From a virus, in the IMG/VR virus record IMGVR_UViG_3300042892_002840, positions 33,030 to 97,029 of that record: a stretch of DNA of 64,000 bases; one strand, given 5' to 3'. Under the pieces are notes generated by a model that worked only from the letters and a program-made list of their open reading frames with translations, did no database searches and had not been told where the DNA came from. Both the position numbers and the translations under genes were made by a program. This document shows, in pieces, positions 1 through 19,164 of this stretch. Each line of letters opens with the position of its first letter. The stretch's first letter is position 1.

Positions 1-345
1 GTGATACTTTCTAATGGTTATTTCATCTGGTAAAAAACCAAGGTCTTTATCGACTGACTCAGAGTAATCATTAATGCACATCTGTATTGCATCATGAATA
101 GTTGATATAATCAAAAAAGATTCTTCGTCTACAGAACCATCAAGACCGCTTCTATATGCACCCGCTTTAAACTCTCCGAACACATCATCTGGCCTAGTAC
201 TTGAAACCCATGGTTCCCAATTACTGAGAGTAGGATTGCTTGCCATCTTAAGATTAAGCTCTTCTATTTTTTTAATAAAAGCATTAGGATTTGGAATTAA
301 TTCTTTGTAATAAAAAATCCCATCTGCTAAAACTTCTTTTATCAT
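1..345 (-). CDS. 2OG-Fe(II) oxygenase, 3'-truncated by the window edge
   Basis: Hand-translated MIKEVLADGIFYYKELIPNP...EITIRKYH; ATGA overlap with the preceding gene; N-terminus resembles neighbouring oxygenases. Confidence 0.7.
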   Translation of the reverse strand, partial: MIKEVLADGIFYYKELIPNPNAFIKKIEELNLKMASNPTLSNWEPWVSSTRPDDVFGEFKAGAYRSGLDGSVDEESFLIISTIHDAIQMCINDYSESVDKDLGFLPDEITIRKYH

Positions 346-1040
346 TCTCTACCCTTTGGCATAGATGGCTTTCCTTCTGGAGTTGCCCATTTTTTATAAA
401 GCTCTTCTTGCTCTTCTCTGACTTTCTTTAACTCTTCTGCCCATGCTTGCTTCTGTTCTTCTGTATACACACATCTAGCATCATCCCAAAAGGATCCGAT
501 TGTGTATCTTATTCCGCCTCGAACAGTTGTGACCATGTGCTCTCTTGTATGACCGCCAGCAAAAAATGCTGCTAGGCCAATCTCTGGCTTTACGTCAATG
601 CCATTGTCTTTAAATTTTAAATGACCACCTTCAAAATCATCATTTAAATAAATGAAGACTGCATATTTACTTTTTTCAAAAGCTGTTGGATTTCCATCAT
701 CGTCTGAGTTATCTGAGTGATAGTCAGCAAATGCACCATCAATCCATCTCTGTGCATGGTAGCTGACTTCATTAACCTCAAACCCTAAAAGCTCTTCAGT
801 CTTTGACTTAATTTTTTCTTTAAGTTGACCGAAGAAGTCTGGGTCAAGGCCAAATAACTTAAGCCTATCGTCTGTTGGCCAGTATCCCATGGCTTGTGAT
901 CCGTAAAAAGAGATCTCGTTCCATTTAAGAACCTTATTGTCTACAAGGTAGTCAAAGTATTTAATGACAGCTTCGCAGGTCTCTTTATCTATAAAATTTT
1001 CTACAAGAAAAAATTCATCTCTAATAGGCCTGTCTGTCAT
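342..1040 (-). CDS. Prolyl-4-hydroxylase-like 2OG-Fe(II) oxygenase
   Basis: HSD...YLNDDFEGG...H.V...G.RYT motif set. Confidence 0.9.
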   Translation of the reverse strand: MTDRPIRDEFFLVENFIDKETCEAVIKYFDYLVDNKVLKWNEISFYGSQAMGYWPTDDRLKLFGLDPDFFGQLKEKIKSKTEELLGFEVNEVSYHAQRWIDGAFADYHSDNSDDDGNPTAFEKSKYAVFIYLNDDFEGGHLKFKDNGIDVKPEIGLAAFFAGGHTREHMVTTVRGGIRYTIGSFWDDARCVYTEEQKQAWAEELKKVREEQEELYKKWATPEGKPSMPKGRE

Positions 1041-1825
1041 GATTCATACCCTAAATGTTTTCTTTCTGAGTATTTCATGTTTTTTGGATTTTCTTTTTCA
1101 ATTCTATCCCACTCCATCTTAGCCCATCTGTATGCCCCAATGTGTTTTTGGTTAGCTATCCATTCTGGGGTTCCATCAAAGATATGCTGAATAAAATTAC
1201 GAATAAAGAATTTTTCTCCATTTTTAATTACTCTAACTCCATGGAAATATGGTTCTGTTGAAGGGAATACAAGGATGTCTCCCGCCTTTGGCTTGTATGG
1301 ATAGTATACGTCATCAACAATAAACTCAATATCTCCGCCCTCGTAGTCATCGTTTATGTATGTTGTGCAAGTCAGCAAAAACTTTGGACCTGGCATATCT
1401 CTTTCAGAAATAATATAATCCGTGTGGTATTGCATTGTCATTTCATTTCGCATAGTATCAATGTTTGAATTATATTTTGAAAACGAAGATGTCATCAACT
1501 TTGAGGTTGGTGGCATTTGAACATTGTATCTTTCTACGTAGTCTTCAATTGCAGTATTGTATGCCTCGTAAACTCTATCAGACAAATGCTTTTCTTCATC
1601 ATACATAGGGCCAAACTCTCTAGGCTCATTGTCGTCGTGTTTTTGCTGTGAGTATGTACCAAAAATAGACCATTGGTCCCAAGTTCTTAAGTAGTACTTT
1701 CCTTCTGATGTGCGCTCAGATCTCTTCATTATGTCATAAAGATTATCTGCGTCAGGTAGTAATCCCTGATAAATTCTTACATTTGGCAGTAACTCAAATG
1801 ATGTGTACTCTTGCTTACTTGTCAT
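1037..1825 (-). CDS. Prolyl-4-hydroxylase-like 2OG-Fe(II) oxygenase
   Basis: HTD, YINDDYEGG, FHGV, GEK. Confidence 0.9.
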   Translation of the reverse strand: MTSKQEYTSFELLPNVRIYQGLLPDADNLYDIMKRSERTSEGKYYLRTWDQWSIFGTYSQQKHDDNEPREFGPMYDEEKHLSDRVYEAYNTAIEDYVERYNVQMPPTSKLMTSSFSKYNSNIDTMRNEMTMQYHTDYIISERDMPGPKFLLTCTTYINDDYEGGDIEFIVDDVYYPYKPKAGDILVFPSTEPYFHGVRVIKNGEKFFIRNFIQHIFDGTPEWIANQKHIGAYRWAKMEWDRIEKENPKNMKYSERKHLGYES

Positions 1826-2492
1826 CCTCTAATCCCAACTTTGTTATTGTCCAGAAAAATGGGGCAGTATATCTAGTCCCACTTGTAACCTTTGTCACTC
1901 CATGAATATAGTTCTTGTCCCCAGGGAAAAAGTACGCTGCTCTTGGTTTAGGTTTAAATTTAATATTTTGAAGTGGAAAGAATAGCTCTCCGCCTTCATA
2001 GTCGTCGTTTAAATAAAATACAGTTCCTAAGTCATACCATGGAAATTCATTTGGTGTTCCTGCGTCTGGGCCTTCGTGAAGCTCTTTATCTGCATGTGGA
2101 AACTGCATTGTGCCTACAGGCCACCTTACAATAGCTGCATCAGTCGGCTTTACTTCAACCTGAAACTTTTCTCTAATATAAGGTGTCATTCTTTCAATTA
2201 CACGATCTAAAATTGCTACAACTTCGCCTGTTGGATCTGCTTTCAAAAGAGTATTCATTGTTGCTACTCTGTCTTCCCAAACCCTGTGGTCATATATAAT
2301 GCTTCCATTTTCATTCCATTGGGACTCTGTTACATCCCATACAGTGTTGCTTTTTGCAAAAGTAAGAAGATAGTCTTGCTCTTCTGGTGTCACCATGTCC
2401 TCTAGCTCGACAACATTATCTGGTGAATTGCCAAAGTATCCAGAAGGAGTGATAGTTTCTCTTGCGTATCGTGCTCTTTTAGTATATTCCAT
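1815..2492 (-). CDS. Prolyl-4-hydroxylase-like 2OG-Fe(II) oxygenase
   Basis: HAD, YLNDDYEGGEL, HGVTKVTSGTRY. Confidence 0.92.
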   Translation of the reverse strand: MEYTKRARYARETITPSGYFGNSPDNVVELEDMVTPEEQDYLLTFAKSNTVWDVTESQWNENGSIIYDHRVWEDRVATMNTLLKADPTGEVVAILDRVIERMTPYIREKFQVEVKPTDAAIVRWPVGTMQFPHADKELHEGPDAGTPNEFPWYDLGTVFYLNDDYEGGELFFPLQNIKFKPKPRAAYFFPGDKNYIHGVTKVTSGTRYTAPFFWTITKLGLEDDK

Positions 2493-2499
2493 TTTTTAC

Positions 2500-3228
2500 C
2501 TATTCATATTTCTTTAGAGATCGAACGGTTTGCTTGTATGCACCGCCGTCTTTTGTTCTAAACTTTTTTGCCTGAGCATTGTGTCTTTCTTGCAAAGAAA
2601 CAAGGTCATGAAATTTTGGCTCCATTTTCCACTCTTCTCTTTTATATGGAATTAGCTGAAGGTAAGGAGTTCCTTTTGGAACCTTACCCTCAAAGTCATT
2701 CCTTAAGAAAAACGGTATAAGACCTGGAGTATTCATCTTATCATTATCTATTATAGCAGAGGTGGTTATAAACGGTAAATCAAATCTGTTGATTGGATTT
2801 ACATATAAAACGCTATATCCATCTGGAACCTCTGGTGCCCAATTAGGATACCAGTGGAAGTGTCTGTCTAGGTATCCGTGTGGAACTGGAAACTCATTCA
2901 TAGGGGCTCTTGACCCAACAAAATCTTCGTATCCTGGTTCTGGTATTGCTATCATCTCACCATTTGGCAGTTTGCTAAAAACAATATCGCATGGGGTTAC
3001 ATAAAAATATCCAGTGATAAATATATCAAGTAAACCTGGGCAAGACTTAAAGCTTCTTACTAGTCCACCTTCAGGGTTGGGCCAGTACTCTCCTGTCTGC
3101 TTGTTAAGCTCAAACTTGTCTGCTTTTTTAAACCATTCTGGAGTTAAATTTCTTGCTGGCTTTGGCTGATATTCTTCGCTTATAATGTTGTACAGCCTAT
3201 TAGAATGAAATTTTATTTTATTGCTCAT
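2500..3228 (-). CDS. DUF6065-like hypothetical protein, paralog of 6444-7175
   Basis: PEWF, K.CPG..D, P.NRFDLPF, PKGTPYLQLIP shared with 6444-7175. Confidence 0.6.
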   Translation of the reverse strand: MSNKIKFHSNRLYNIISEEYQPKPARNLTPEWFKKADKFELNKQTGEYWPNPEGGLVRSFKSCPGLLDIFITGYFYVTPCDIVFSKLPNGEMIAIPEPGYEDFVGSRAPMNEFPVPHGYLDRHFHWYPNWAPEVPDGYSVLYVNPINRFDLPFITTSAIIDNDKMNTPGLIPFFLRNDFEGKVPKGTPYLQLIPYKREEWKMEPKFHDLVSLQERHNAQAKKFRTKDGGAYKQTVRSLKKYE

Positions 3229-3916
3229 TTGTTTTTAACCTAATTACCTTTAGCTCGTGTTCACCTATTTTGTTGCCTAGATGATCTGTTGCATTCCTAT
3301 AAAAGCCAGCCCACTTACCCTGCTGATTAATTCTTTCTGCTGTCTCTCCATATTCTCTTCCATCAAATTGAGCACCGACGTAATCCTTACCGTCGTGTAA
3401 ATTAATTTCAGAATTATTTAATTCAGACAAAGTAATTGGGAGTATGGCAGCTACTGGTGTATTTGCTGGTATTGTTATAATCTTTCCTGGGGAAGTTATT
3501 CTCCAAACAACTGGAATCTCGCCTGAAAAAAATGATGTTGTTAATAGCGTAGTAAATGCTTGAGCTCCATCTATAAATTGATTTGGAACTGGCATAATAA
3601 GAGTTGTTGTCTCCAAGTTAGTCTTAAAGGTTAGCCCTGTCCTAAAGCTTATTGTTCCATTTGCTCTATTTGTGTGACAATAATTTTCTCCAGAAAGAAC
3701 CTTTACATGATCTGGGCTGCTATTAGAAATGCCATCCCATATAAAAGAAATATCTTCTGGAAAAGAAATTCCCCATCCTAGTTGATTTGCAAGGCTTACT
3801 GGAAAACAATTGTAGGCGTGTCTATCTACAGTATTTTCCATCCAGTCTCTCTTTACAGAAAGCTGGGATATCTCCCCTGGATTTTTATCAGCCTTATAAA
3901 CCTCTATTTTATGCAT
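3218..3916 (-). CDS. DUF6065 family protein
   Basis: RDWM...HAYNCFPVSLANQLGW motif typical of DUF6065 (recognised from memory). Confidence 0.7.
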   Translation of the reverse strand: MHKIEVYKADKNPGEISQLSVKRDWMENTVDRHAYNCFPVSLANQLGWGISFPEDISFIWDGISNSSPDHVKVLSGENYCHTNRANGTISFRTGLTFKTNLETTTLIMPVPNQFIDGAQAFTTLLTTSFFSGEIPVVWRITSPGKIITIPANTPVAAILPITLSELNNSEINLHDGKDYVGAQFDGREYGETAERINQQGKWAGFYRNATDHLGNKIGEHELKVIRLKTNEQ

Positions 3917-4607
3917 AGCCCTCAGTGTATCTCTTTTCTATTTCCCTATAGTCTGGAGTATGCGGAGCCTCTAAATAGTCTAGCATTGTTACTATTGAAT
4001 ATTTTGTGCCGCTTGTTACTGGAAGCGAAGCGTGAGAAAACAGATAGCTTGAAGGGAAAAGGTACAGGTCTCCTGCTTTAGGCTTAATCTTTAAATTAAA
4101 TTTATCAAAGTAAAGTTCGCCTCCTTCATAGTCATCATTAATATATCCTACCGATGACAGCACACATATATAAGAGTATCCATGATCTGAGTGTACTTGA
4201 AAATGCTGGCCTGGCCCATACTTTACAAAATTAAATGATTCCCAGTACTTGAGTGGAGCAACATTAAAGCGCTGTCTATAATCTTCAACAGGACCTATTT
4301 GCACATCTCTTGAGTCTTCCCAAATTTTTTCTAGCTTTATCTGATCTGGGCTCTTGTTGGAATCATCTGGATTGTTTTTCTTAACTTTAAAATCAAAAGC
4401 ATCTCTATACTTAAGGTCGTTGTTAGCGTATCCCGTTGTAGCCTGCTTCCATTTGTATGTGGAGTGAGGGGAATCAGAATATCCAACCCCTTCTGCATTA
4501 GGGTCTGAAGATAGGCATTCTTCTAACCTATTAATTAGATCCATTTCTTTTGTAAATACATTTCTGTAAACAAGCACACCTGGTGCTAAAATTTCTGGCT
4601 GGTTCAT
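3909..4607 (-). CDS. Prolyl-4-hydroxylase-like 2OG-Fe(II) oxygenase
   Basis: HSD, YINDDYEGGEL, HASLPVTSGTKY; paralog of 7175-7882. Confidence 0.92.
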   Translation of the reverse strand: MNQPEILAPGVLVYRNVFTKEMDLINRLEECLSSDPNAEGVGYSDSPHSTYKWKQATTGYANNDLKYRDAFDFKVKKNNPDDSNKSPDQIKLEKIWEDSRDVQIGPVEDYRQRFNVAPLKYWESFNFVKYGPGQHFQVHSDHGYSYICVLSSVGYINDDYEGGELYFDKFNLKIKPKAGDLYLFPSSYLFSHASLPVTSGTKYSIVTMLDYLEAPHTPDYREIEKRYTEGYA

Positions 4608-4646
4608 TTTGTCTCCCTTATCTATATTATATATAATTCTTGCAGT

Positions 4647-5408
4647 TTAGTCAATCAACTTATCTTTTATAAATCTACCTCTTTTTTTATCTATAGCAAC
4701 AAGACTTGACTTATATAAGTCTTTTGTCCAAAAGCTTGTGTGAGTGTATCTGTTGCCAGAAGTTATCTGTCTGATACCGTGCATTGTATTTATGTCACCA
4801 CTGAATATTAAAAGCATTCCAGCTTTTGGCTTAATTGAAAACTCATTATGTTGAGGAAAGAAAAGCTCTCCTCCTTCAAAATCATCATTAAGATACAGCA
4901 TTGAGGTGTAAAGTTTATTTGTAAATAGCCTTTTATATTCAGTTATATTTTTTTCTTCAAAGAAATATTTGCATTGCTCTGGGACTAAAGATAAATCAAT
5001 AGTGCTTAGGTCAAAGTTTGGATCGATAAAGTCAACATGTGGCTCTTGAAGATGTGGGTAATACCATTTAACTATTTCCCATAACTCGCTGTATATTTCA
5101 AAATCAGGCTTAAAGAAATCTTTTACTTGCTCTTCCATTCTTTCTTGAATTGGAACAACAAATTTAAACAGTTCTTTGTAGTTTTCCATGCCCTCTCTGT
5201 AAAGCTCATTTATCTCTATTCTACGATTATCCCAGTGCTCTGCTGCAGACTTATAGTCTTCTTCTGTCTTAAAAGTTTGTCTTTGTCTATTATGCTTAGA
5301 CCATAATCCAGATTCTTCTGAATATTTAATTAGCCAGTCGCATTCTTCCTTGCTTATAAAATTCTCAACTATTCTACAATGTGGTGATTTTAGGTCTTTT
5401 ATATTCAT
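4647..5408 (-). CDS. Prolyl-4-hydroxylase-like 2OG-Fe(II) oxygenase
   Basis: HVD, YLNDDFEGGEL, HGIRQITSGNRY. Confidence 0.9.
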   Translation of the reverse strand: MNIKDLKSPHCRIVENFISKEECDWLIKYSEESGLWSKHNRQRQTFKTEEDYKSAAEHWDNRRIEINELYREGMENYKELFKFVVPIQERMEEQVKDFFKPDFEIYSELWEIVKWYYPHLQEPHVDFIDPNFDLSTIDLSLVPEQCKYFFEEKNITEYKRLFTNKLYTSMLYLNDDFEGGELFFPQHNEFSIKPKAGMLLIFSGDINTMHGIRQITSGNRYTHTSFWTKDLYKSSLVAIDKKRGRFIKDKLID

Positions 5409-5971
5409 CTCAACCAGCTTGCTATTGCGTATCTGGTTCCAGAGATTACTGGATTAACCTTATGCCTATATGCATATGAAGAAGGAAACATTATAAAATC
5501 TCCTGCCTGTGGCTTATACTTTACATCAAATGAAGGGAACTCTATTTCCCCTCCCTCATAGTTATCATTTAAATAAAATACAGTTGATGCCCTTCTAAAA
5601 GTTGCGCCTGCGTCATCTATGTGTAGATCAAATTTGCCGCCGACATCGTACTTTAGTATCTTGTAGGGCTGATGAACCTTAAATTTAATATAATGGTCTT
5701 CTTCATAATCTTTCTCTATTTCAGAGAATGTTTTATTGAAAAGGCTTGAAAAAAACTTAACATAGTCTTCGTCTTCTTCCCTTGAGTAAGCTGTAATATC
5801 TATTGATTTTGTATCTCTGTAAGAACTGTCTAGTGATTTGTTTCCGTCATTAGCATCAACAACATACTCTGATAGCCATTCGGCATTTGACAAAGATTCT
5901 ATTTCTTTAAAAATTTTTGAGCTATCTATCTTGTAGACAACTATTCCTGGCGCTAGTGTACTTTTAATCAC
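5405..5971 (-). CDS. Prolyl-4-hydroxylase-like 2OG-Fe(II) oxygenase
   Basis: HID, YLNDNYEGGEI, HKVNPVISGTRY. Confidence 0.92.
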   Translation of the reverse strand: MIKSTLAPGIVVYKIDSSKIFKEIESLSNAEWLSEYVVDANDGNKSLDSSYRDTKSIDITAYSREEDEDYVKFFSSLFNKTFSEIEKDYEEDHYIKFKVHQPYKILKYDVGGKFDLHIDDAGATFRRASTVFYLNDNYEGGEIEFPSFDVKYKPQAGDFIMFPSSYAYRHKVNPVISGTRYAIASWLR

Positions 5972-6444
5972 ATAAACATCCTGTAGTAGGGCCTAATAAA
6001 CCATTTTGGAGTAATAGGATTTACATGCATCTTCCATATTATTGCAAATGCATAGGTGTCGTTATTAAAATTATTTAAATATGATTCTCCATTTTTAATA
6101 ACAAATGTGCTGTTTTCATATTCACCATTTAAATATGTTAGAGTCTGACAAAATGTGTCTTCGTCAAACTTAGCATTCTCTATATTTCCATTAATTTTTA
6201 AAATTTGATAATAAAATGGAAACACTTTTTCTGAAACATTATGGTTGTCGTATATTATTTGCTGAACAGATAGCCCAGTCTCTTCGACAATTCTAGCTGA
6301 GTGCCTATGTATTTTATACATCATCTCGCCATCAATTCTATTTTCTGTCCACAGCTTTGGCTGTTTAGAAAGGTTCCATTGATCTAATGATATTAGTACT
6401 TCTTTGTAAGGGTCAAGCAAAGAAGATGGTATGTGTGTGTACAT
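5968..6444 (-). CDS. Hypothetical protein, possibly a degenerate oxygenase fold
   Basis: Translationally coupled within the cluster; TYLNGEYEN echoes YLNDDYEG but there is no HxD motif. Confidence 0.5.
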   Translation of the reverse strand: MYTHIPSSLLDPYKEVLISLDQWNLSKQPKLWTENRIDGEMMYKIHRHSARIVEETGLSVQQIIYDNHNVSEKVFPFYYQILKINGNIENAKFDEDTFCQTLTYLNGEYENSTFVIKNGESYLNNFNNDTYAFAIIWKMHVNPITPKWFIRPYYRMFM

Positions 6445-7175
6445 TACTTATACTCTCTTCTTTCCCAAAACTTATCCTTATATACTCCGCCATCTGGCTT
6501 TCTAAATATCTTTCTTGTTTTTATAATTCTATCATATATATCGCCAGCCTTGTCTATCTGCAATTCTGATTCCCAATTTTCTCTTTTGAATGGTATTATT
6601 TGTGCATATGGGGTGCCAGCTGGTATTACTCCTAGCCAACCTTCAATTAAAAAAAATGGCAAAGATCCTGGCATAGAAACTTTATCTGTATCTATAATCC
6701 CAGATGTGTTGATAAACGGTAAATCAAATCTATTCATTGGCGTTATATACAGAGAGCTATAGCCGTCTGGAGTTTTAATTCCCCAGTCAGACATCCAAGC
6801 AAAGGATTCTTTTCTATATCCTAATGGCGTGGGAAATCCAGAGAGCGGATGCCTTATTTCACAAAAGTCTTCATATTTTGAATCTTCTATTTTTACATCT
6901 ATTTCTAAGTTTTCATTAATAAAAAATTCAATATCACATGGTGTTTTTAATACATATCCTGTTGTAAATGCATCAAGTAAAGCTGGACAACCTTTCCATG
7001 TTGCCATCTTTCCACCATCTGAGTCTAAAACATATTCATTTTTTTCATTTTTAAAAAATCTATCTGCAATACTATACCATTTTGGAATAAATTTAGATGT
7101 TGGCATTGGGCTGCTTATGCTTGACTTATTCAGCCAATGCCTATTAGCAATAAATGTTATTAGGCTTGCTTTCAT
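6444..7175 (-). CDS. DUF6065-like hypothetical protein, paralog of 2500-3228
   Basis: PKWY, KGCPALLD, PMNRFDLPF, PAGTPYAQIIP. Confidence 0.6.
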   Translation of the reverse strand: MKASLITFIANRHWLNKSSISSPMPTSKFIPKWYSIADRFFKNEKNEYVLDSDGGKMATWKGCPALLDAFTTGYVLKTPCDIEFFINENLEIDVKIEDSKYEDFCEIRHPLSGFPTPLGYRKESFAWMSDWGIKTPDGYSSLYITPMNRFDLPFINTSGIIDTDKVSMPGSLPFFLIEGWLGVIPAGTPYAQIIPFKRENWESELQIDKAGDIYDRIIKTRKIFRKPDGGVYKDKFWERREYK

Positions 7176-9251: not shown

Positions 9252-11066
9252 TTAAGCTGAAAGGTCTCCGACAAGCACCCAAGTATTTGCCGCTCTCTTG
9301 ATGAGAGTTGCTGATGACCATTGTGCACGAAGCTTTAATCCTGGAGTTGCATTTACTGTAACTCCACCTGCTGCTGCAACATCTACTGCGCCTGCTCCCA
9401 CTCTCAGAACATCTAGGGATGTACCGATTGGGAATGCAACTGCTGCATCTGTTGGAATTGTTACTGTTGTTGCAGAAGCTGAGTTCATTTCAATCATTGA
9501 GTCTTTTTCATTGACTGATGAAAGAGTGTAGCTTGCTGTCTTCTGTGAAATTGGTGTAGCAGAAGGAACCTTGCCAGCTAACGCTGTTGTTACAGTAGCT
9601 GCGTAGTTTGCGTCATCTCCAAGTGCTGCTGCTAATTCATCAAGTGTGTTTAGCGCTGCTGGTGCTGATGCAATTACTGCATTCACCTGTGCTGTTGCAT
9701 CTGCAATAGCTTCTGACTTAGCTGTTGCAATTGCTGTAGCCTGTGCTGAAGATACTGGCTTATTAGCATCTGATGTATTGTCAACGTTTCCTAGGCCAAG
9801 TGTAGTTGCTGTGACAGCTGCTACTTCTGACTTAAGTGCTAGAAGTGATGTATCTGAAATTCCGTGTACATTTGTTGTATCTGAGTTGTGATCTGATACC
9901 TTTGTGTCAGCAGCTGTTGCTGCTGCTGTAATAGCTTCTGACTTAGCATTTGCTGCCTTTGTTGTAGCATCTGCTGCTGCTGCTGAAACTGCACCATCTG
10001 CTTTAGTTGTAGCGTCTGCTGCTGCTGTAGCTAGTGCAGTTGTAATCGCTGAGTCACGATCTGCAACTGTTGAAATTACAGTCTGGTCAACGCTAAGTGT
10101 TAATAGGTTTCCTGCATCGTCATATACTCTTCCAAGACCGTTTCCAGCAGTAACCTGAATCATTCCTGCTGCTGTATCTTGAATTAGCTCTGCAGCATTT
10201 GCCTGAGAAACGTATGTTGTTGATGCGTTGTTAATTGTTAAATATGTGCTTGCAGCATCTGTCTTTGCAAGGTAGTCGGCATCATTGAGTGCCTTATTCT
10301 GATAGCTTGCTTCTAGAGCTGTTGTTGTGACGTATCCTTCAATTGAAGCACCAGCTGGAATTGTTACTGTTCCAGTAAATGTTGGTGATGCGATTGTTGC
10401 CTTTGTTGCTAAAGCAGATGTTACTGTTGTAGCGTAGTTAGCATCATTAGCTATTGCTGTTGCAAGCTCATTAATTGTATCTAGGGCCTCTGGAGCTCCG
10501 TTTACAAGTGTTTGAAGTGATGCATCTACATATGTGCGTGTAGCAACTGTTGAGTTAATTGCAATTGCACCTGTTGTATTGTCGTATGAAATTCCTGTTC
10601 CGCCTGAGAGCTTTGCTCTAACTGATGCGTCTGAAATTTGATCCGCAAGGACCTTTGCGTTTGCATCAAGTGATGCTACACCAAAAGCTACACCCTTATC
10701 GGCTTCTGGAACATATGTTCCATCAGCTGAGTTAGATAGTGCAGTAACTGCGTTATCTACGTAATCTCTATTTGCCCATACTGTATCACTAATTTCAATA
10801 GTAATTGTATTTGCACCATCGTTGTATGTCTTTGTAAGACCAGTTCCAACTACGAGTGCTGAGTTAATTGCATCTTGTGCAATTTCTGTAACTCCTGGGG
10901 TATCTGATGCGCCGTATGAAAGTGTATTCCATGCTCCTGTACCATTACCAAATTTAAACTTATTACTATCTGTCTCATATCCCATTTCACCTGCGGCTAA
11001 TACTGGGTTTACTGAAGACCAGTCTGCTGCCAGACCTCTTCTTACTTGAATTCTTACTGTTGACAT
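9252..11066 (-). CDS. Tail fibre / virion protein with an Mtd_N (hyaluronidase-N)-like N-terminus
   Basis: RIQVRRG...NPVLAAGEMGYETDSNKFKFGNG; AP.ALDTL.ELA.A fibre motifs. Confidence 0.8.
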   Translation of the reverse strand: MSTVRIQVRRGLAADWSSVNPVLAAGEMGYETDSNKFKFGNGTGAWNTLSYGASDTPGVTEIAQDAINSALVVGTGLTKTYNDGANTITIEISDTVWANRDYVDNAVTALSNSADGTYVPEADKGVAFGVASLDANAKVLADQISDASVRAKLSGGTGISYDNTTGAIAINSTVATRTYVDASLQTLVNGAPEALDTINELATAIANDANYATTVTSALATKATIASPTFTGTVTIPAGASIEGYVTTTALEASYQNKALNDADYLAKTDAASTYLTINNASTTYVSQANAAELIQDTAAGMIQVTAGNGLGRVYDDAGNLLTLSVDQTVISTVADRDSAITTALATAAADATTKADGAVSAAAADATTKAANAKSEAITAAATAADTKVSDHNSDTTNVHGISDTSLLALKSEVAAVTATTLGLGNVDNTSDANKPVSSAQATAIATAKSEAIADATAQVNAVIASAPAALNTLDELAAALGDDANYAATVTTALAGKVPSATPISQKTASYTLSSVNEKDSMIEMNSASATTVTIPTDAAVAFPIGTSLDVLRVGAGAVDVAAAGGVTVNATPGLKLRAQWSSATLIKRAANTWVLVGDLSA

Positions 11067-11122
11067 TTATGCCACCCCTTATTTTATATTATTTGTAAAG
11101 TATACCATTTTTTCAATTACAA

Positions 11123-11482
11123 TTATGCGTTAATTGTGCTTGAGTCAAATGATAGGTCAAACGATGTTGTTGCTGGGGTTCCGCCATCAGCGAATTTAGT
11201 CGCTGTTGTGACAACCCCGTTTGCTTGTACTGTATAAACAGGATTGCCATCATAATCAATAGCCAATCCAATATCCATAAAGCTTATTGCACCTGATGTG
11301 TCTACTACATCTGTTGTATGTGCCAAAGAGACCCAAGTTCCGTTGATCTGAACCTTGAGCCTTCCTGATGTTTCGTCGAATGCTATTGGGGCGGTGCCTA
11401 ATACGATGTCAGAATCAAATGTTGCTGTACCAGCTACATTTAACCCATTCTTTACTCTAAAATTTTTATTTACTGTTGCCAT
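11123..11482 (-). CDS. Putative virion structural protein
   Basis: MATVNKNFRVKNGL N-terminus shared with 11553-12980; lies in the tail module. Confidence 0.6.
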   Translation of the reverse strand: MATVNKNFRVKNGLNVAGTATFDSDIVLGTAPIAFDETSGRLKVQINGTWVSLAHTTDVVDTSGAISFMDIGLAIDYDGNPVYTVQANGVVTTATKFADGGTPATTSFDLSFDSSTINA

Positions 11483-11552
11483 TTAAGTTCACTTATCCCC
11501 TAATTGTTTATTGTGGGGGATTTTTAAGGAATCCCCCGAAACCTTTATTTAA

Positions 11553-12980
11553 TTATTTAAGAAGTGTTCCAGTTACTTTGATTGTTGAATCATTTACTGG
11601 ATCTACTCTTAGCTGAACATTTGCACCAGATACTGATGCTGTTATTGTTCCTCTTGATCCATTAGTTCCGACAATTGCGTATTCTGTAATTGCTACGTTA
11701 TCTGATGAATCTAGTGTTACTAGAATTTCTGATATTTCATTGTTTGTTCCATTGTCAATTTTAACAAGGAACTTACCTGAGCGGAAATCCGCTTTTGCCC
11801 ACTGATAAGCAGTTACTGGAACTGATCCCAATGATGCTGATGTAGCTGCAATATGCTTAGCCTCATCATTTACATTAATTTCTGTGAATGCTGTTGTGCC
11901 GTCTACAAGATTGTCTACAAGGCCATCTGCATGTCCTTCTGCTGCTGTCTGTGCTGCTGAAGCAGATCCTGCTGCATCGTAGTTAGATGCTAGGCTGTCT
12001 GCATATCCTCTTGCTGAGGTATCTGCAGCATTTGCTTTATTTGTAGCATCGGTTGCTGCTGCTGTCTGTGCTGCTGAAGCAGATCCTGCTGCATCGTATG
12101 CTGCTGATGTTGCAGAAAGTGCTGCTGTGTTGAAATCTGAGATATCTGCTGAATCAAGACCAGTTACAGAAATTGTTGATCCTGTAATATCAATGTTTGA
12201 TCCTGCTGTTAATGTATCTTGCTTTCCTGCTGCAATATCCTGAAGATCAGAGATAATGTCTGGATTGTCCTGAAGTGCTGCTGCCAACTCGTTGAGTGTA
12301 TCAAGTGTTGCTGGGGCTGAGTCTACAAGGTTTGCAATTGCGGTGTCTGCATGAAGTTCTGCTGCTGCTTGAGCAAGACCAATTTCTGTGCTTGTCTTGT
12401 ATGCTGACCAGACCTTATCTGAAGCGCTTGAAGCGTCATTGATCTTGTTGTCTGCATAATCTTCTGCTGCAGACTGAGCATTATTTGCAGCTGTTGTAGC
12501 AAATGATTCTGCTGCTGACTGTGCTGCATTTGCCTTATTTGTAGCATCTGTTGATGCTGTAGCTTCTGCGGCTGCCTGAGCATTATTTGCTGCAGTTGTT
12601 GCAAATCCTTCTGCTGCAGTCTGTGCTGCTGCTGCAGCGCCTGCTGCATCGTAATTTGATGCTAAGCTGTTTGAGTATGATTGTGCATCTGCAAGAGCTT
12701 GATTAGCCTTATTAGTTGCATCTGTTGCTGCTGCTGCTTGAGCCGCTGAAGCAGATCCGTATGAATCAAAAGTATTAGCATTTACTGTAAGGTTTCCTGA
12801 ACCATCTACATTAAATACGCTGGTGTCAACGGACTTAACAAGAGTCGCTCCGCCAACAAGGTTGAGGATATAGCTATCTCCACCTGTTTCTGTAAGGATG
12901 TTTTGGCCATTGATTGTACCTGTGGTACCTTCAACTATAAGGCCAGATTTAATTCTAAAGTTTTTAACTACTGTTGCCAT
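11553..12980 (-). CDS. Tail fibre-like protein
   Basis: Ala-rich YDAAGSASAAQ and DATNKAN repeats; APATLDTLNELA motif. Confidence 0.7.
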   Translation of the reverse strand: MATVVKNFRIKSGLIVEGTTGTINGQNILTETGGDSYILNLVGGATLVKSVDTSVFNVDGSGNLTVNANTFDSYGSASAAQAAAATDATNKANQALADAQSYSNSLASNYDAAGAAAAAQTAAEGFATTAANNAQAAAEATASTDATNKANAAQSAAESFATTAANNAQSAAEDYADNKINDASSASDKVWSAYKTSTEIGLAQAAAELHADTAIANLVDSAPATLDTLNELAAALQDNPDIISDLQDIAAGKQDTLTAGSNIDITGSTISVTGLDSADISDFNTAALSATSAAYDAAGSASAAQTAAATDATNKANAADTSARGYADSLASNYDAAGSASAAQTAAEGHADGLVDNLVDGTTAFTEINVNDEAKHIAATSASLGSVPVTAYQWAKADFRSGKFLVKIDNGTNNEISEILVTLDSSDNVAITEYAIVGTNGSRGTITASVSGANVQLRVDPVNDSTIKVTGTLLK

Positions 12981-13007
12981 TTATATGACTCCTCTTGTTG
13001 CTTTTTA

Positions 13008-13559
13008 TTATGCCTTGATTGCTGTTCTAATAAATCTTACTGATATAGAACCGCTCACAGGGGTGACTCTTAGATTAATTATACCTGAAGTTTCTTCAAA
13101 TGTATAAGTAAATAAATTATTATCTGTTGTGGAAATAATGTTAGTCTCTGAGACTAGAACATTTGTTCCATCATGTGTCGTTGAGATGTCAGAAGAATAA
13201 ACATCTGCACCCTTTGTTACCTGTATTTTATAAAATACAGACTTCCAAACACTTTTTGCAAAAGAATCAATTGTTGTTTGATTCTCAATTCCATTTACCT
13301 CTAGGTCATTGTTACCGTCAAGTCCTAGCAGCTCTTCTACGTATCCTGAGTTGTTAGTAAGCCCATCTACTGCTGTAGATAGATTGTTTATCTTGTATGT
13401 TAATGAATTTGAGTCTGCTGAGTTTGTAACTCCTACTACAGTTTCCAAAGCCTCAATAGCGTCGTTTGCATTGGCATGCTGAGCAGCATGTCCTACTAGC
13501 TCGTCTGTTGAATTTGGATTTGTAAGGTTGTCCTTACTTGTTGGGAAAACTGTTGCCAT
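13008..13559 (-). CDS. Putative virion structural protein
   Basis: HAAQHANANDAIEALE; C-terminal domain resembles that of 11553-12980. Confidence 0.6.
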   Translation of the reverse strand: MATVFPTSKDNLTNPNSTDELVGHAAQHANANDAIEALETVVGVTNSADSNSLTYKINNLSTAVDGLTNNSGYVEELLGLDGNNDLEVNGIENQTTIDSFAKSVWKSVFYKIQVTKGADVYSSDISTTHDGTNVLVSETNIISTTDNNLFTYTFEETSGIINLRVTPVSGSISVRFIRTAIKA

Positions 13560-13615: not shown

Positions 13616-14800
13616 TTAAGACGGAATAAAACCAGAAGGCAGTCCTTTTATTACACGCTCTTCTAATTCACCAGTTGAGAAGTGTATGCCAGAATACCTT
13701 TCAAAATCTTCAAGTGTTCTCTCTGCAAATAAGCCATTTACTGGATCAATCTTGTTTTTAACTATAATCTGCTGAAAGTAAGACTTCGATGCATTATGTC
13801 TTGGATAAAATTCTTCTGGAAAGTCGTCCCAAAACAAGACTCTGTCTGGTCTACCGTATCTATGATACACGAATACTTTTCTTGGAGTTACTAGATTGTA
13901 ACCCGCTGTAAAAAACCTAAGTGCCATAAGTGGCTCTTCCTCAGTAAATGTAACTTCATCTACAAATGGCACAGATTCAATTACTGTTTTTTCAGTAAAG
14001 AAAAAGTGGCCAGACAAATAGGGGGAAAGCACATTTGTTTCTGGGTTAGTGTATTGTGGGGTAAACTGAGGAACAAGAGTAGACTTAAAATGTGCAATGT
14101 TTGACTCTGACATAAAGAATGTTGGATTAGCCTCACATTCCTGAAGTTCGTCATTTCCATTTTCATCTACTGTATATGGTGGTACATATGCTGTAAATAC
14201 AAGTTCATCAAAGTTTTGCTTGGCATAGTTATACTCTTTAATTAATTCTGTATCCCACCCAGATATTGATCTCATGTGGGAGTCCATGTTAAGATAGTAG
14301 TCTTGGTTGTTATAAAACTTGTGAGAATTCTTCCTAGCAGGCTGGCAACCAATAATTGATCCAGGATTTAATGAATCAACTGACACATTTTTTCTTTTTG
14401 ATGCTTCTGCTATATTAAAATCTATGTCATCATCCTGAATAGTTAATCCAAAATACACTCTATCTGGAAACTCAGCATTCTTTAAGAAGTTATCTACTGT
14501 GGTCCAAATCTCTGGGTCTTTATATGATGGAATATTGATAAATATAGTAGCTTCATTCTGTATCATAAGCAATTCCATTTCTTTTTCTGTTACTGGATCT
14601 TCTCCGCCCCATTTATGAATAGGGCATTCTGCTAACTGCAATTTGGTTTTGAATTTCATAAAACAACCACACTTTTTACATTGCTTGGTTGTATTAATAA
14701 ACTCTGGGCATGCCTTGCATATCTCATATCTTGATTTAGCAAGATCTGGAGTGGCATATTGACTATTAGGGTTTAATAGGTCCCATGGCTTTACTGACAT
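13616..14800 (-). CDS. GT60/Gnt1-like polypeptide GlcNAc-transferase with an N-terminal Cys-rich (DUF6171-like) domain
   Basis: IFINIPSYKDPE, YYLNMDSHMR, EE...LRFFTAGY...P...YHRY match the Skp1 hydroxyproline GlcNAc-transferase family; N-terminal CxxC..CxxCGCF..CP..KW. Confidence 0.8.
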   Translation of the reverse strand: MSVKPWDLLNPNSQYATPDLAKSRYEICKACPEFINTTKQCKKCGCFMKFKTKLQLAECPIHKWGGEDPVTEKEMELLMIQNEATIFINIPSYKDPEIWTTVDNFLKNAEFPDRVYFGLTIQDDDIDFNIAEASKRKNVSVDSLNPGSIIGCQPARKNSHKFYNNQDYYLNMDSHMRSISGWDTELIKEYNYAKQNFDELVFTAYVPPYTVDENGNDELQECEANPTFFMSESNIAHFKSTLVPQFTPQYTNPETNVLSPYLSGHFFFTEKTVIESVPFVDEVTFTEEEPLMALRFFTAGYNLVTPRKVFVYHRYGRPDRVLFWDDFPEEFYPRHNASKSYFQQIIVKNKIDPVNGLFAERTLEDFERYSGIHFSTGELEERVIKGLPSGFIPS

Positions 14801-14818
14801 ATATATATGATATCATTT

Positions 14819-17440
14819 TTACTTGTTGTGGACAAGCATGCCATTTACAAAGAACCAGTCATATGGTTCACAAGAGAACTGATATACATTTACAGTCTCG
14901 TTTGCCATAAACTCTATCTTATTAACAATAGTTTCATTAATTGTTCCATCAGAATTAACAGTTATTAAATATTCTCCACGCTCAACATAATATGCCTCTT
15001 TAATCTTATATTTACCGTCTAGGGTTTTAACAAAAACTGGCTGAGTATATGTCATTCTTGTATCAACATCATCGTTAAAATATAATATGTCAGATTCTTG
15101 TGTTTCAATAATATCTGTTATTGTTGTTTCAACAAATTCATTAACGGATAAGTTGTCTGAAGACCATGTTGAGAATTGATAAGAGTCTGGTGTGGACGCA
15201 TCTATTTCATCAATTACTATAGACTTAATCTTGTCTCCGACCTGTAAGAACTTAGCTGGTACTTGACCATCCATTGTATCTACAAGTGTGTTTTCTTCTA
15301 CACAAGGAGGTCCAAACCAAGGGATGAATACAAAGCTTGGGGGTGCGAAGAACCCTGGAGGAGAAAAGAATCCTGGAGGAGAAAAGAACCCTGGAGGTGC
15401 GAAGAACCCTGGAGGGCTAAAGAACCCTGGAGGTGCAAAGAAACTTGGAGGGCCAAATGCTAAAGCTCCTCCACAGCATGACCAGCCTGAAGGAACATTG
15501 TATACATCAGATCCACCAAGACGTGAATAGCCAAGCTCTGAACATGTGTAAGAAGTTGGATTTGTTATTGTTCCAGGACAATCTTGTTTTGTTGGTGTAG
15601 GAGTTGGTGTAGGAGTTGGTGTAGGAGTTGCTGTAGGATTTGGTGGTGTTGGGGTTGCAGTTGGTGTTGGGGTAGGTGTCGGAGTTGGTGTAGGAAGCGC
15701 TCCTCCACAGCATGACCAGCCGCTTGGTACATTGTAAGCATCAGATCCGCCAAGTCTTGTATATCCTAATTCTGAACATGTAGAAGACACTGGATTGGTT
15801 ATAGTTCCAGGGCAGTCTTGTAAAGGTGTTGGGGTGGGCGTTGGAGTTGGAGTAGGTGTTGGAGTTGGGGTTGCAGTTGGTGTTGGGGTAACTGTTGGAT
15901 CACAAGCAGCAGCTGCAGCATCCCGTAATGCAGCCGCATAGGTTGTTCTATAAACTGTTTTTACTGTTCCGTTAACGTTATAAACCGATGTATCTGCAGG
16001 AATTCCTGTTGTATTTGTAGTTGGTCCAGAAGCTGAAGGTGCAGACACATATTCTCCGCTAGTACCCTTGCATGTAGATGTTCCAGTGTAGTAAACATAT
16101 GTTGTTGGGGTTGCAGTTGGTGTTGGGGTAGGTGTAATTGTTGGATCACAAGCGGAGTTTCCTGCATCCACAAGGGCGGCAGAATAAGTCGTTCTATAAA
16201 CTGTTTTAATGCTTACTGTTCCATCAAGTACCTGTGTATCTTGTGGAAGAGTGTTGCCTTCTGCAACAAATGGGCCAGTAACTGAAGGAGATGCGGAATA
16301 AACTCCACTGAATCCATTACATCTAGAGACTCCAGTGTAATAGCTTACTCCAGTTAAAGTAGTGAATTCGACAGTATTCGATGTCCAGGATGTCTCATCA
16401 AAATTTGGTGTTGTTCCAGATGCTACAACTTTATACCTATATGTTTCTCCAGCTGTTAGGAATGTTATTGGAATTGTATTAGTTGTTCCTGAGTCATTTC
16501 CTGCTGGCAAAGAAGATCCATCTGGGTTTACCCAGTAAAGCTGCCAGCCATTTTGAGTAAAGTTAGATGTAGACCATGAAAGTGTTGCTGTGGTTTGTCC
16601 GATATCTGAAACTGATAAAACTACAGTTGGATCAAATGGTTTCATATCTGGGACAACATATTCTTTATAGGCGCCTTGAAGAGGCTGTCCTGTTGCTTGA
16701 AAATAAGGGTTGTTTGTGTTTTGTGAAGCAATATAAACTAACAATGGACCATCTGCTTTACCTAAAAGACTTTCAAATGGAGCTATTGATGAAACTAAAG
16801 ATGTGGTTTCATAAGCAGTTTGATTTTCTACTGAATCAACAATCTTTTCGTTTTGAATTCCTGCTCCTACAAAATAAATTTTAAATTTATTTGCACTTGG
16901 AACCCTTAACCATCTTAAATTAACTTTGCTATTTTCTGGAACAGTAGCATCTATATATATTACATCTTGTGGCTTTACTAAATAGTCATTGAGTCCAGCT
17001 AAAAGGTTATTGCCATTTACGTAAACTGGTTCGCTATCACCAAACTCATTTGTTGCCACAACTTTACACCTAAGAACATATCCTACCATTTGCTTATCAA
17101 TATAAGAAGAATTGTTATTTGAACCAAAATCAATCCATGTTGCATTTGTATAATCATTTGAAATCAAGTATGCAGCTTTTTGCCAAGTATATCTGTAAGA
17201 GGTTGGTGTATTTGTCCATGTGCCGCTTGTAATTGTTACAAACTGATCTGCCATTCGATTATTATTTTGCCAATTAAAAACTGGAGATTCTGTAAGAACT
17301 GGGACAGCAGCCCCAAACTTTTTCCATTCAGTTCCATCGAAAACATAAGATGCCTTTGAATCAACCCATGAAGAACCGTCATGTATCTTGATTTTCTTTA
17401 ATGGCTTCCATTCGGATCCATCAAATATATTTAAAGGCAT
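14819..17440 (-). CDS. Large virion/fibre protein: Ig/FnIII domains, (TP)n linkers, Cys-rich repeats, 6 FFxPPG repeats, C-terminal Hint domain
   Basis: Seen in the translation; Hint CVEENTLV (15304)...LVHNK. Confidence 0.85.
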   Translation of the reverse strand: MPLNIFDGSEWKPLKKIKIHDGSSWVDSKASYVFDGTEWKKFGAAVPVLTESPVFNWQNNNRMADQFVTITSGTWTNTPTSYRYTWQKAAYLISNDYTNATWIDFGSNNNSSYIDKQMVGYVLRCKVVATNEFGDSEPVYVNGNNLLAGLNDYLVKPQDVIYIDATVPENSKVNLRWLRVPSANKFKIYFVGAGIQNEKIVDSVENQTAYETTSLVSSIAPFESLLGKADGPLLVYIASQNTNNPYFQATGQPLQGAYKEYVVPDMKPFDPTVVLSVSDIGQTTATLSWSTSNFTQNGWQLYWVNPDGSSLPAGNDSGTTNTIPITFLTAGETYRYKVVASGTTPNFDETSWTSNTVEFTTLTGVSYYTGVSRCNGFSGVYSASPSVTGPFVAEGNTLPQDTQVLDGTVSIKTVYRTTYSAALVDAGNSACDPTITPTPTPTATPTTYVYYTGTSTCKGTSGEYVSAPSASGPTTNTTGIPADTSVYNVNGTVKTVYRTTYAAALRDAAAAACDPTVTPTPTATPTPTPTPTPTPTPTPLQDCPGTITNPVSSTCSELGYTRLGGSDAYNVPSGWSCCGGALPTPTPTPTPTPTATPTPPNPTATPTPTPTPTPTPTKQDCPGTITNPTSYTCSELGYSRLGGSDVYNVPSGWSCCGGALAFGPPSFFAPPGFFSPPGFFAPPGFFSPPGFFSPPGFFAPPSFVFIPWFGPPCVEENTLVDTMDGQVPAKFLQVGDKIKSIVIDEIDASTPDSYQFSTWSSDNLSVNEFVETTITDIIETQESDILYFNDDVDTRMTYTQPVFVKTLDGKYKIKEAYYVERGEYLITVNSDGTINETIVNKIEFMANETVNVYQFSCEPYDWFFVNGMLVHNK
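15221..15328. repeat. 108-bp exact direct repeat, copy 2
   Basis: Identical to 8308-8415. Confidence 0.9.
15335..15442 (-). repeat. 18-bp tandem repeat x6 encoding FF(S/A)PP(G/S)
   Basis: Counted directly. Confidence 0.95.
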
Positions 17441-19163: not shown

Positions 19164-19164
19164 T

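What the first reader, a model, noticed from the sequence alone, without database searches (positions are those of the whole stretch)
1..17440. Candidate phage hydroxyproline-glycoprotein system: P4H cluster + Hyp-GlcNAc transferase + Pro-repeat Hint proteins
Seen: eight co-oriented P4H-like oxygenases and three DUF6065-like genes lie directly downstream of a gene encoding (FF[S/A]PPG)12 plus a Hint domain. A GT60/Gnt1-like transferase (13616-14800) lies directly downstream of a second gene with (TP)n linkers, (FFxPPG)6 and a Hint domain. All sit among tail-fibre genes. Established: Gnt1 of Dictyostelium/Toxoplasma adds GlcNAc to hydroxyproline made by a prolyl 4-hydroxylase, and X-Pro-Gly and Ser/Ala/Thr-Pro repeats are typical P4H substrates. 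Inference: the phage hydroxylates and glycosylates its own fibre proteins, like an extensin or collagen coat. An alternative is that the repeats are RiPP-like core peptides matured by the oxygenases.
Basis: partly seen in the sequence, partly recalled or inferred. Interest (0 to 1): 0.88.

Follow-up and report, generated by a model that had tools for sequence, protein, structure and literature searches.

The report
Phage fibre proteins with tailoring enzymes
An uncultured lake phage, probably of actinobacteria, encodes two fibre-region proteins with greasy Phe/Pro repeats capped by a self-cutting-type (Hint) domain, beside a GT60 protein sugar-transferase and a block of proline-hydroxylase-type enzymes; comparison with related phages suggests that the enzymes decorate these proteins, but no chemistry has been tested.

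Summary
On the minus strand of window 1-17440 lie eight intact P4H-superfamily 2OG oxygenases (one runs off the window start) and three DUF6065-type genes. There are also two modular proteins ending in (FF[S/A]PPG)12 or (FF[S/A]PPG)6 plus an intein-like Hint domain, and a GT60 transferase, all among fibre genes.

New points:
- The Hint is a BIL-type domain with Cys1 and an HN-K-stop end, but Gln replaces the block B His.
- More than 500 protein clusters share the layout "Ig/fn3, aromatic/Pro repeat, C-terminal Hint".
- The repeat is not conserved as X-Pro-Gly. Relatives carry PPFF or FGFTP.
- In about 40 more distant phages the GT60 sits in a cassette: a large P/T- and Cys-rich protein, a Zn-ribbon, a P4H-like oxygenase, sometimes a radical-SAM/SPASM enzyme, then GT60. 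That is a protein-tailoring cluster.
- DUF6065 proteins have a dUTPase fold, and their homologues stand alone next to RNR in other viruses.

Verdict: GT60 tailoring of the neighbouring P/T-rich protein is well supported by gene context. Hydroxyproline as the acceptor, and the oxygenase array acting on the Phe/Pro repeats, are plausible but unshown.

This scan has already noted the same system in several related phage genomes. I found no paper describing it.

The parts
1..345 (-). C-terminal part of a 203-aa 2OG-Fe(II) oxygenase, the last gene of the array (full gene L002:14764-15375)
   Evidence: PF13640 E 5e-11; HxD..H kept
342..2492 (-). Three 2OG-Fe(II) oxygenases (342-1040, 1037-1825, 1815-2492)
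   Evidence: PF13640 E 2e-9 to 2e-7; nearest solved is P3H1 or B. anthracis P4H
2500..3228 (-). DUF6065-related paralogue ('dufB')
   Evidence: hhalign against its paralogue 6444-7175 E 7e-61; that paralogue aligns with the DUF6065 group at probability 86%, E 5e-6
3218..3916 (-). DUF6065 protein with a dUTPase-like fold
   Evidence: PF19541 E 4e-27; AF2 pLDDT 71; dUTPases at Z 8-11 and Foldseek E 2e-4
3909..5971 (-). Three 2OG-Fe(II) oxygenases (3909-4607, 4647-5408, 5405-5971); 5405-5971 is the closest to the oxygenase of the GT60 cassettes in relatives
   Evidence: PF13640 E 5e-13, 1e-8, 2e-17; PiuC or P4H nearest solved; cassette oxygenases score best against the 5405 or 4647 groups
5968..6444 (-). 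Conserved 158-aa array member of unknown family
   Evidence: No Pfam or PHROG hit; orthologues in relatives
6444..7175 (-). DUF6065-related paralogue ('dufB'), phrog_7084
   Evidence: homologues in haloarchaeal HF1/HF2-type viruses and cyanophage S-RIM4
7175..7882 (-). 2OG-Fe(II) oxygenase, first gene after the Hint protein
   Evidence: PF13640 E 5e-14; nearest solved is lysyl hydroxylase LH3 or mimivirus L230
7906..9225 (-). 439-aa protein: fn3 domains, (FF[S/A]PPG)12, IPWFGPP junction, C-terminal Hint domain ending HNK
   Evidence: exact-match contigs in an RNA library
9252..13559 (-). Fibre genes (9252-11066 with Mtd_N, 11123-11482, 11553-12980, 13008-13559)
   Evidence: order conserved in relatives
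13616..14800 (-). GT60 glycosyltransferase fused to an N-terminal DUF6171-like Cys ribbon
   Evidence: PF11397 E 7e-41; D173-x-H175, H313 and E288-E289 conserved in 38 homologues
14819..17440 (-). 873-aa protein: fn3-like domains, Cys-containing modules separated by (TP)n linkers, (FF[S/A]PPG)6, Hint domain ending HNK
17454..21058 (-). Further fibre-type genes upstream (17454-19181 with Mtd_N, 19165-19626, 19629-20597, 20612-21058)

Best explanation
Window 1-21 kb is an enlarged fibre/adhesin module of an uncultured freshwater siphovirus, probably of actinobacteria. It sits between the RNR gene and the portal gene.

The module encodes two modular surface proteins. Each has fn3/Ig-like domains (the larger also has Cys-containing modules joined by (TP)n linkers), then a hydrophobic Phe/Pro repeat, and ends in a BIL-type Hint domain.

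Inferred steps:
(1) The Hint domain forms a thioester at the GPP|C junction and removes itself, leaving the repeat as the C-terminal tail.
(2) The GT60 enzyme O-glycosylates the P/T-rich linkers of the protein encoded just upstream. It does so either directly on Thr or on hydroxyproline made by one of the P4H-type oxygenases.
(3) At least some of the eight diverged oxygenases hydroxylate the Pro-rich and aromatic repeats and perhaps the fibres.

The outcome would be a mucin- or extensin-like, protease-resistant glycoprotein appendage.

Shown here: the families, the catalytic motifs and the conserved gene order. Not shown: any modification, its site, or Hint cleavage.
For: - Families and intact active sites.
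- The nearest solved relatives of the oxygenases are all protein Pro/Lys hydroxylases or PKHD hydroxylases.
- Hint: the profile hits a BIL domain at E 7e-5. Cys1 and the terminal HN are invariant and widely kept. Of the best 150 clusters, 135 of 140 carry the Hint at the C-terminus and 111 keep HN.
- Conserved order 'Hint protein then oxygenases', and 'large Hint protein then GT60', across the 38 related loci, wherever a locus reaches that far.
- In more distant phages (GT60 about 30% identical), 29 of 39 loci have a P/T-rich protein upstream of the GT60 and 19 of 39 an adjacent P4H-like oxygenase. Eight have a radical-SAM/SPASM enzyme directly before the GT60. SPASM enzymes are classic peptide/protein maturases (established knowledge).
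- In the FGFTP lineage the Hint protein is followed by three paralogues that the Atlas places near 2OG-FeII_Oxy_5 (a lead only). GT25-type and other glycosyltransferase genes lie in the same module.
- The Hint protein and fibre genes appear as exact contigs in a freshwater RNA library.
- Host and habitat: portal 55% identical to Streptomyces phages, WhiB present, lake metagenomes from about 10 studies.
Against: - No chemistry is known.
- The gene-order evidence comes from one broad phage lineage that shares the whole fibre module, so the loci are not fully independent.
- Half of the GT60 loci have no oxygenase nearby, which fits direct Thr glycosylation.
- The repeat sequence is not conserved as a P4H consensus.
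- The number of oxygenases varies from about 2 to 13 beside similar Hint proteins.
- Three more oxygenases lie elsewhere in the genome.
- The DUF6065 members have a nucleotide-enzyme fold and occur alone beside RNR in other viruses.
- The Hint has Pro at -1 and Gln in place of the block B His. Both usually slow the N-S acyl shift (established knowledge for inteins), so cleavage is not assured.
Confidence: 0.5

Rival explanations
1. Only the GT60 acts on the phage protein, adding sugar directly to Thr in the (TP)n or poly-Thr linkers as the trypanosomatid GT60 enzymes do. The oxygenase/DUF6065 array is a separate accessory block in a hyperplastic region. It would act on host proteins, small molecules or nucleotides, like the unexplained 2OG oxygenase sets of cyanophages.
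For: - 20 of 39 GT60 loci have no oxygenase nearby, including those with pure poly-Thr linkers.
- DUF6065 has a dUTPase fold.
- dufB homologues stand alone next to RNR in HF2 and S-RIM4, with no oxygenase within 6 kb.
- Three further oxygenases are scattered in the genome.
- Array size varies widely.
Against: - The array always starts directly after the Hint-repeat gene in the loci that carry it.
- A P4H-like oxygenase is wedged between the Zn-ribbon and the GT60 in many cassettes.
- The nearest characterised relatives are protein hydroxylases.
- DUF6065 does not visibly keep the dUTPase motifs (by eye).
Confidence: 0.27
2. The repeats are multicore RiPP-like precursors. The oxygenases, and SPASM enzymes in relatives, mature the hexapeptide units. 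These are then released as small Phe/Pro peptides, with the Hint supplying a C-terminal thioester for release or cyclisation.
For: - Strict peptide phase of the 18-bp repeat.
- Tailoring-type enzymes next door.
- Radical-SAM/SPASM in relatives.
Against: - The repeats sit behind 200-700 residues of folded fn3/Ig and Cys modules typical of virion appendages.
- No protease, cyclase or exporter is in the block.
- A Hint cuts only once, after the last unit.
- Repeat units drift freely between relatives.
- The window's genome has no radical-SAM gene.
Confidence: 0.05
3. The Hint domains and repeats are structural only. The Hint would be a non-cleaving folding or assembly cap, and the enzymes do not touch these proteins at all. 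Adjacency reflects shared late transcription.
For: Atypical active site: -1 Pro, block B Gln, no +1 nucleophile.
Against: - Cys1 and HN are conserved over hundreds of 50%-identity clusters, which argues for selected chemistry.
- The enzyme cassettes are non-randomly placed.
Confidence: 0.12

Closest known systems
Skp1 hydroxyproline glycosylation pathway of Dictyostelium and Toxoplasma (PhyA prolyl 4-hydroxylase, then Gnt1, CAZy GT60)
   Same: A P4H-superfamily oxygenase and a GT60 (PF11397) enzyme with a DxH motif are encoded together. In many relatives they are adjacent.
   Different: There is no Skp1-like acceptor. The likely acceptors are long P/T-rich linkers and Phe/Pro repeats of phage appendage proteins. 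There are many oxygenases instead of one, and a fused or free Cys ribbon. The acceptor residue is unknown.
Trypanosomatid GT60 polypeptide alpha-GlcNAc transferases that start mucin O-glycans on Thr
   Same: The same GT family, and Thr-rich mucin-like acceptors ((TP)n, poly-Thr).
   Different: Phage-encoded and cytoplasmic, and often paired with an oxygenase.
Mycobacteriophage virion O-glycosylation by phage-encoded glycosyltransferases (Freeman et al. 2023; from my own knowledge, cited in the papers found)
   Same: Actinobacterial phages sugar-coat their own virion proteins with their own glycosyltransferases.
   Different: Other GT families act on capsid and tail-tube C-termini. No hydroxylases, Hint domains or aromatic/Pro repeats are involved.
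Giant-virus protein hydroxylases: PBCV-1 prolyl 4-hydroxylase and mimivirus L230 lysyl hydroxylase/glycosyltransferase (6ax6)
   Same: Virus-encoded P4H-superfamily enzymes thought to modify the virus's own Pro-rich or collagen-like proteins. L230 is among the weak PDB hits.
   Different: Those are eukaryotic viruses with collagen or PAPK repeats. Here it is a tailed phage, the repeats are not collagen-like, and there is an array of eight paralogues.
Bacterial intein-like (BIL) domains and Hedgehog C-terminal autoprocessing domains
   Same: A Hint domain with Cys1 at the end of a secreted or surface-type protein, expected to make a thioester and cut itself off. The best solved match is BIL 2lwy.
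   Different: Gln replaces the block B His, Pro is at -1, the end is HN-Lys-stop, and an aromatic/Pro repeat always lies upstream. No sterol-recognition region is present.

Membership tests
CAZy GT60 / Pfam PF11397 (GlcNAc) | Profile match above the curated cut-off | tested here: met
   141 bits against a cut-off of 21, E 7e-41
CAZy GT60 / Pfam PF11397 (GlcNAc) | GT-A metal site with a DxH motif and a distal His | tested here: met
   D173, H175 and H313 conserved in 92-100% of 38 homologues
CAZy GT60 / Pfam PF11397 (GlcNAc) | Transfers GlcNAc from UDP-GlcNAc to Hyp or Thr of a protein | not testable with these tools
   Only gene context: a P/T-rich protein upstream in 29 of 39 loci
Prolyl 4-hydroxylase-type 2OG oxygenases (PF13640) | Profile match above the cut-off | tested here: met
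   Eight genes, 32-65 bits against a cut-off of 27
Prolyl 4-hydroxylase-type 2OG oxygenases (PF13640) | HxD...H iron triad and a basic 2OG-binding residue | tested here: met
   Present in all eight
Prolyl 4-hydroxylase-type 2OG oxygenases (PF13640) | Peptidyl-proline as substrate | not testable with these tools
   The nearest solved relatives are P4H, P3H1, LH3 and PiuC at E 1e-4 to 3e-7. That is too distant to assign a substrate.
Hint superfamily (inteins, BIL, Hedgehog) | Significant sequence similarity to known Hint domains | tested here: met
   Profile against PDB: BIL 2lwy E 7e-5, CDC21 intein E 4e-4
Hint superfamily (inteins, BIL, Hedgehog) | N-terminal Cys/Ser nucleophile (block A) | tested here: met
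   Invariant Cys in 14 of 14 sequences. A Cys at the aligned position in most of the 96 cluster representatives printed (by eye, not counted).
Hint superfamily (inteins, BIL, Hedgehog) | Block B TxxH | tested here: not met
   Invariant T-F/Y-T-Q-P. Gln aligns with the His of 2lwy.
Hint superfamily (inteins, BIL, Hedgehog) | Hint fold | tested here: inconclusive
   The AF2 model has pLDDT 53 and was not used
Splicing inteins | C-extein with a +1 Cys/Ser/Thr, and ligation of exteins | tested here: not met
   The domain ends HN-Lys-stop
Pfam DUF6065 (PF19541) | Profile match | tested here: met
   3218-3916 at E 4e-27. The other two genes match only by hhalign (probability 86%).
Trimeric dUTPase / dCTP deaminase superfamily | Fold | tested here: met
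   Z 8.1-11.2 for 14 dUTPase chains; Foldseek E 2e-4
Trimeric dUTPase / dCTP deaminase superfamily | The five conserved dUTPase motifs | tested here: inconclusive
   Invariant residues are C37, G47, N112 and P160. No dUTPase motif was recognised by eye, and no formal motif alignment was made.
Collagen-like proteins | Gly at every third residue | tested here: not met
   Gly comes every sixth residue at most and is absent in relatives
RiPP gene clusters | A short precursor with leader and core, plus a dedicated protease or exporter | tested here: not met
   The precursors are 439 and 873 aa with folded domains. No protease or exporter is in the block. SPASM enzymes occur only in relatives.

The most novel reading that the evidence does not exclude
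The C-terminal Hint domain does more than cut itself off. Like Hedgehog, it would use its thioester to ligate the hydroxylated or glycosylated aromatic/Pro tail covalently to another molecule: a lysine of a virion protein, a cell-envelope component, or its own conserved terminal Lys. Together with P4H-type, SPASM and GT60 enzymes this would be a phage-encoded pathway that builds a covalently anchored, extensin- or mucin-like glycoprotein appendage. That pathway has been described in no prokaryotic virus.
Probability: 0.12. Interest if true: 0.9.

Novelty: new variant of a known kind. Interest (0 to 1): 0.68.

Why it matters
If correct, tailed phages of abundant freshwater actinobacteria build eukaryote-style hydroxylated and O-glycosylated, mucin/extensin-like appendages with their own enzymes. 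They would finish these appendages with an intein-type self-processing step.

That would add protein hydroxylation and Hint-mediated processing to the short list of known phage virion modifications. It would give a function to some of the many unexplained 2OG oxygenases in aquatic phages. It would also define a large undescribed protein family (more than 500 clusters) with an 'aromatic/Pro repeat plus C-terminal Hint' layout.

It is directly testable by co-expression and mass spectrometry.

Tried and rejected
- Near-identical and protein searches of cultured phages with the whole block, the Hint protein and DUF6065 gave nothing.
- The AF2 model of the Hint domain was too poor to use (pLDDT 53).
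- Alignments A2 and A3 were too diverse for locus scans. P0009 gave no locus.
- GT60 has no solved relative by sequence.
- The three ORFs after the Hint gene in the FGFTP lineage have no Pfam, PHROG or PDB match (the WD40 hits are spurious). Only an Atlas lead points to 2OG-FeII_Oxy_5.
- ORF 5968-6444 matched nothing.
- Papers on glycosylated DNA bases do not involve these families. Literature searches for GT60, P4H or BIL in phages found no description of this system.
- RNA-library contigs did not cover the oxygenase array or the GT60. That is not evidence of silence.
- Complex prediction was not used: enzyme-substrate pairs are outside what it tests well.
- A collagen reading was rejected because Gly is not at every third residue.


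Full report
WHAT IS THERE

The window is the right-hand 64 kb of a 97-kb IMG/VR viral contig. All genes of the finding are on the minus strand. In transcription order they are:
- RNR (21786-23720)
- fibre-type genes
- an 873-aa protein (14819-17440)
- a GT60 transferase (13616-14800)
- four fibre genes
- a 439-aa protein (7906-9225)
- a 13-gene array (7882 down past the window start)
- outside the window: a fibre with a Peptidase_S74 chaperone, a LamG protein, portal, protease and capsid

Streptomyces phages of the Stanwilliamsviridae have the nearest portal (55% identity). In them the order is RNR, LysM protein, one large ORF, a small ORF, portal. The roughly 22-kb fibre/enzyme block is therefore an expansion at that position.

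A WhiB gene and near-identical DNA in lake and freshwater metagenomes from about ten studies point to a freshwater actinobacterial host. That is an inference.

CHECK OF THE OBSERVATION

- Eight genes match 2OG-FeII_Oxy_3 above its cut-off. All keep HxD...H and a basic 2OG-binding residue. They are only 17-45% identical to each other. Each has its own orthologues in related phages. They are therefore old, individually maintained paralogues.
- One gene is DUF6065 by Pfam. Two more are remote paralogues of it (hhalign probability 86%; Atlas lead). One 158-aa member is unclassified.
- The repeats are exactly as described: 12 and 6 hexapeptide units, with an 18-bp DNA period.
- GT60 membership is solid (E 7e-41). 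D173-x-H175, H313 and E288-E289 are conserved in 38 homologues.

THE HINT DOMAIN

Single-sequence hits are weak. A profile of 14 orthologues hits the solved Clostridium BIL domain 2lwy (E 7e-5) and a Pyrococcus intein (E 4e-4).

Blocks A (C-V-E-E-N-T-L-V), F and G (...HN) align as in mini-inteins. Three features are atypical and invariant:
- Gln replaces the block B His.
- Pro is at position -1 (IPWFGPP|C).
- The protein ends HN-Lys-stop, so there is no extein to splice.

A search of 1.84 billion representatives found 507 clusters at E<=1e-3. Among the best 150:
- 135 of 140 carry the domain within 20 residues of the C-terminus.
- 111 keep HN, and 64 have Lys after it.
- Of 96 with enough upstream sequence, 59 have at least 20% Phe/Tyr/Trp in the 40 residues before Cys1, and 57 have at least 20% Pro.

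The repeats differ widely: FFPP, FGFTP, YFPWFP, poly-Pro, YYAPP. The conserved trait is therefore 'aromatic/Pro-rich low-complexity tail directly before a C-terminal Hint', not an X-Pro-Gly motif. Within the window's own lineage, clade A has FF[S/A]PPG. Clade B, with a Hint 55-65% identical, has PPFF or PYFP without Gly.

THE GT60 CASSETTE

Scanning IMG/VR with the GT60 gave about 47 loci with a GT domain, many only about 30% identical. Of the 39 loci with at least 1.5 kb upstream:
- 29 have a P/T-rich protein upstream, with (TP)n, (APTP)n, PPPxT, poly-Thr, PPFF or YYAPPV. These often also carry Cys-rich modules.
- 19 have a P4H-like oxygenase within a few kb.
- The Cys ribbon (DUF6171-like) is either free-standing or fused to the GT60.

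In eight loci the ORF directly before the GT60 is a radical-SAM/SPASM enzyme with CxxxCxxC. A ninth case is L026, another stretch of the contig already counted as L103. SPASM enzymes are known peptide/protein maturases (established knowledge).

This makes the cassette a protein-tailoring cluster aimed, most simply, at the large protein encoded just upstream. Only some of these upstream proteins have a Hint (6 of 39), so GT60 tailoring and Hint capping are separable.

The window has the minimal form: large Hint protein, then ribbon-GT60. It has no radical-SAM gene, and its oxygenases are gathered in the separate array.

THE OXYGENASE ARRAY

The nearest solved proteins are PiuC, Bacillus anthracis P4H, P3H1, LH3 and mimivirus L230. 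All are protein or PKHD-type hydroxylases, but they are too distant to assign a substrate.

The array follows the 439-aa-type Hint gene in every related locus that reaches that far, and in L165/L166. In the FGFTP lineage (L154-L164) the same fibre module and Hint protein are followed instead by three paralogous ORFs with no Pfam, PHROG or PDB match. The Atlas places one of them near 2OG-FeII_Oxy_5 clusters (score 0.96). They share invariant His, His, His and Arg positions. This is a lead that a different oxygenase type fills the same position, not a finding.

That lineage also has only two P4H-type oxygenases nearby, plus a GT25 and another GT-like gene.

DUF6065

A model built on 21 sequences (pLDDT 71) matches trimeric dUTPases in three searches:
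- Foldseek against PDB: all 39 hits at E<=1e-3 listed are dUTPases.
- Foldseek against BFVD.
- VIA-align, independent of Foldseek: Z 8.1-11.2 for 14 dUTPase chains and Z 6-7 for dCTP deaminases.

I did not recognise the dUTPase motifs among the conserved residues. Homologues of the dufB paralogues occur singly next to RNR in haloarchaeal HF1/HF2-type viruses and in cyanophage S-RIM4, with no oxygenase within 6 kb. This is the main reason to keep open a reading in which part of the array has nothing to do with the repeat proteins.

EXPRESSION HINT

In one freshwater metatranscriptome, contigs identical to the window cover the 439-aa gene, including its Hint part, and the neighbouring fibre genes. 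These are contigs from an RNA library and cannot give levels or strands.

VERDICT

A phage-encoded protein-tailoring module around P/T-rich, Hint-capped appendage proteins is the best reading (confidence about 0.5).

Three things remain untested: the acceptor residue (Hyp or Thr), the role of most array oxygenases and of the dUTPase-fold proteins, and whether the atypical Hint actually cleaves.

Earlier follow-ups of this scan reached similar readings on related phage genomes. I found no publication describing the system. The closest published precedents are:
- Skp1 PhyA/Gnt1
- trypanosomatid GT60 mucin enzymes
- mycobacteriophage virion glycosylation
- PBCV-1 P4H and mimivirus L230
- BIL and Hedgehog Hint domains

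Noticed in passing
L104:5078-6013, L103:4994-5998, L113:5024-5995, L096:578-1615 (also L100, L105, L106, L118, L026): A radical-SAM/SPASM enzyme sits directly before the GT60 in related phage cassettes (after the oxygenase where one is present). The upstream proteins there end in Cys-rich knots. This suggests thioether-type cross-linking of a phage structural protein.
   Followed up: partly
window 3218-3916 (also 2500-3228, 6444-7175): DUF6065 proteins have a dUTPase/dCTP-deaminase-like fold (Z up to 11). Homologues stand alone beside RNR in haloarchaeal HF1/HF2-type viruses and cyanophage S-RIM4.
   Followed up: partly
window 42947-43489 (-), 52228-52980 (-), 57870-58472 (+): Three further 2OG-FeII_Oxy_3 matches lie outside the fibre block, so the contig has 11 such genes in all.
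   Followed up: no
window about 53374-53547 (-): A WhiB-family gene (PF02467, E 1e-10), a marker of actinobacterial phages.
   Followed up: no
L157:10330-12325: Three paralogous 215-236-aa ORFs follow the Hint gene in the FGFTP-repeat lineage. They have no family match but share an invariant H-D-H...H...R pattern, and the Atlas gives a lead to 2OG-FeII_Oxy_5. The same locus has a GT25 (PF01755) and a Phage_cement_2 gene upstream.
   Followed up: partly
L079:285-3074: A GT60-cassette protein with Thr/Ile/Asn repeats ends in a canonical Hint (block B with His, LVHN followed by a longer tail). Typical and atypical Hints therefore both occur in this module.
   Followed up: no
window 13616-13810 (N-terminal 64 aa of the GT60): The Cys ribbon (DUF6171-like, phrog_13558) occurs as a small free-standing gene in many unrelated phages, including Stenotrophomonas, Xanthomonas and Synechococcus phages. 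Its role is unknown.
   Followed up: no
P0160, P0164, P0195, P0198: Some GT60 homologues are fused to an HtrL_YibB domain (PF09612), giving about 600-aa two-domain enzymes.
   Followed up: no
L001 and L002, G000:12390-20543 (-): A 2717-aa ORF in the tail region, presumably the tape measure. I did not examine it.
   Followed up: no
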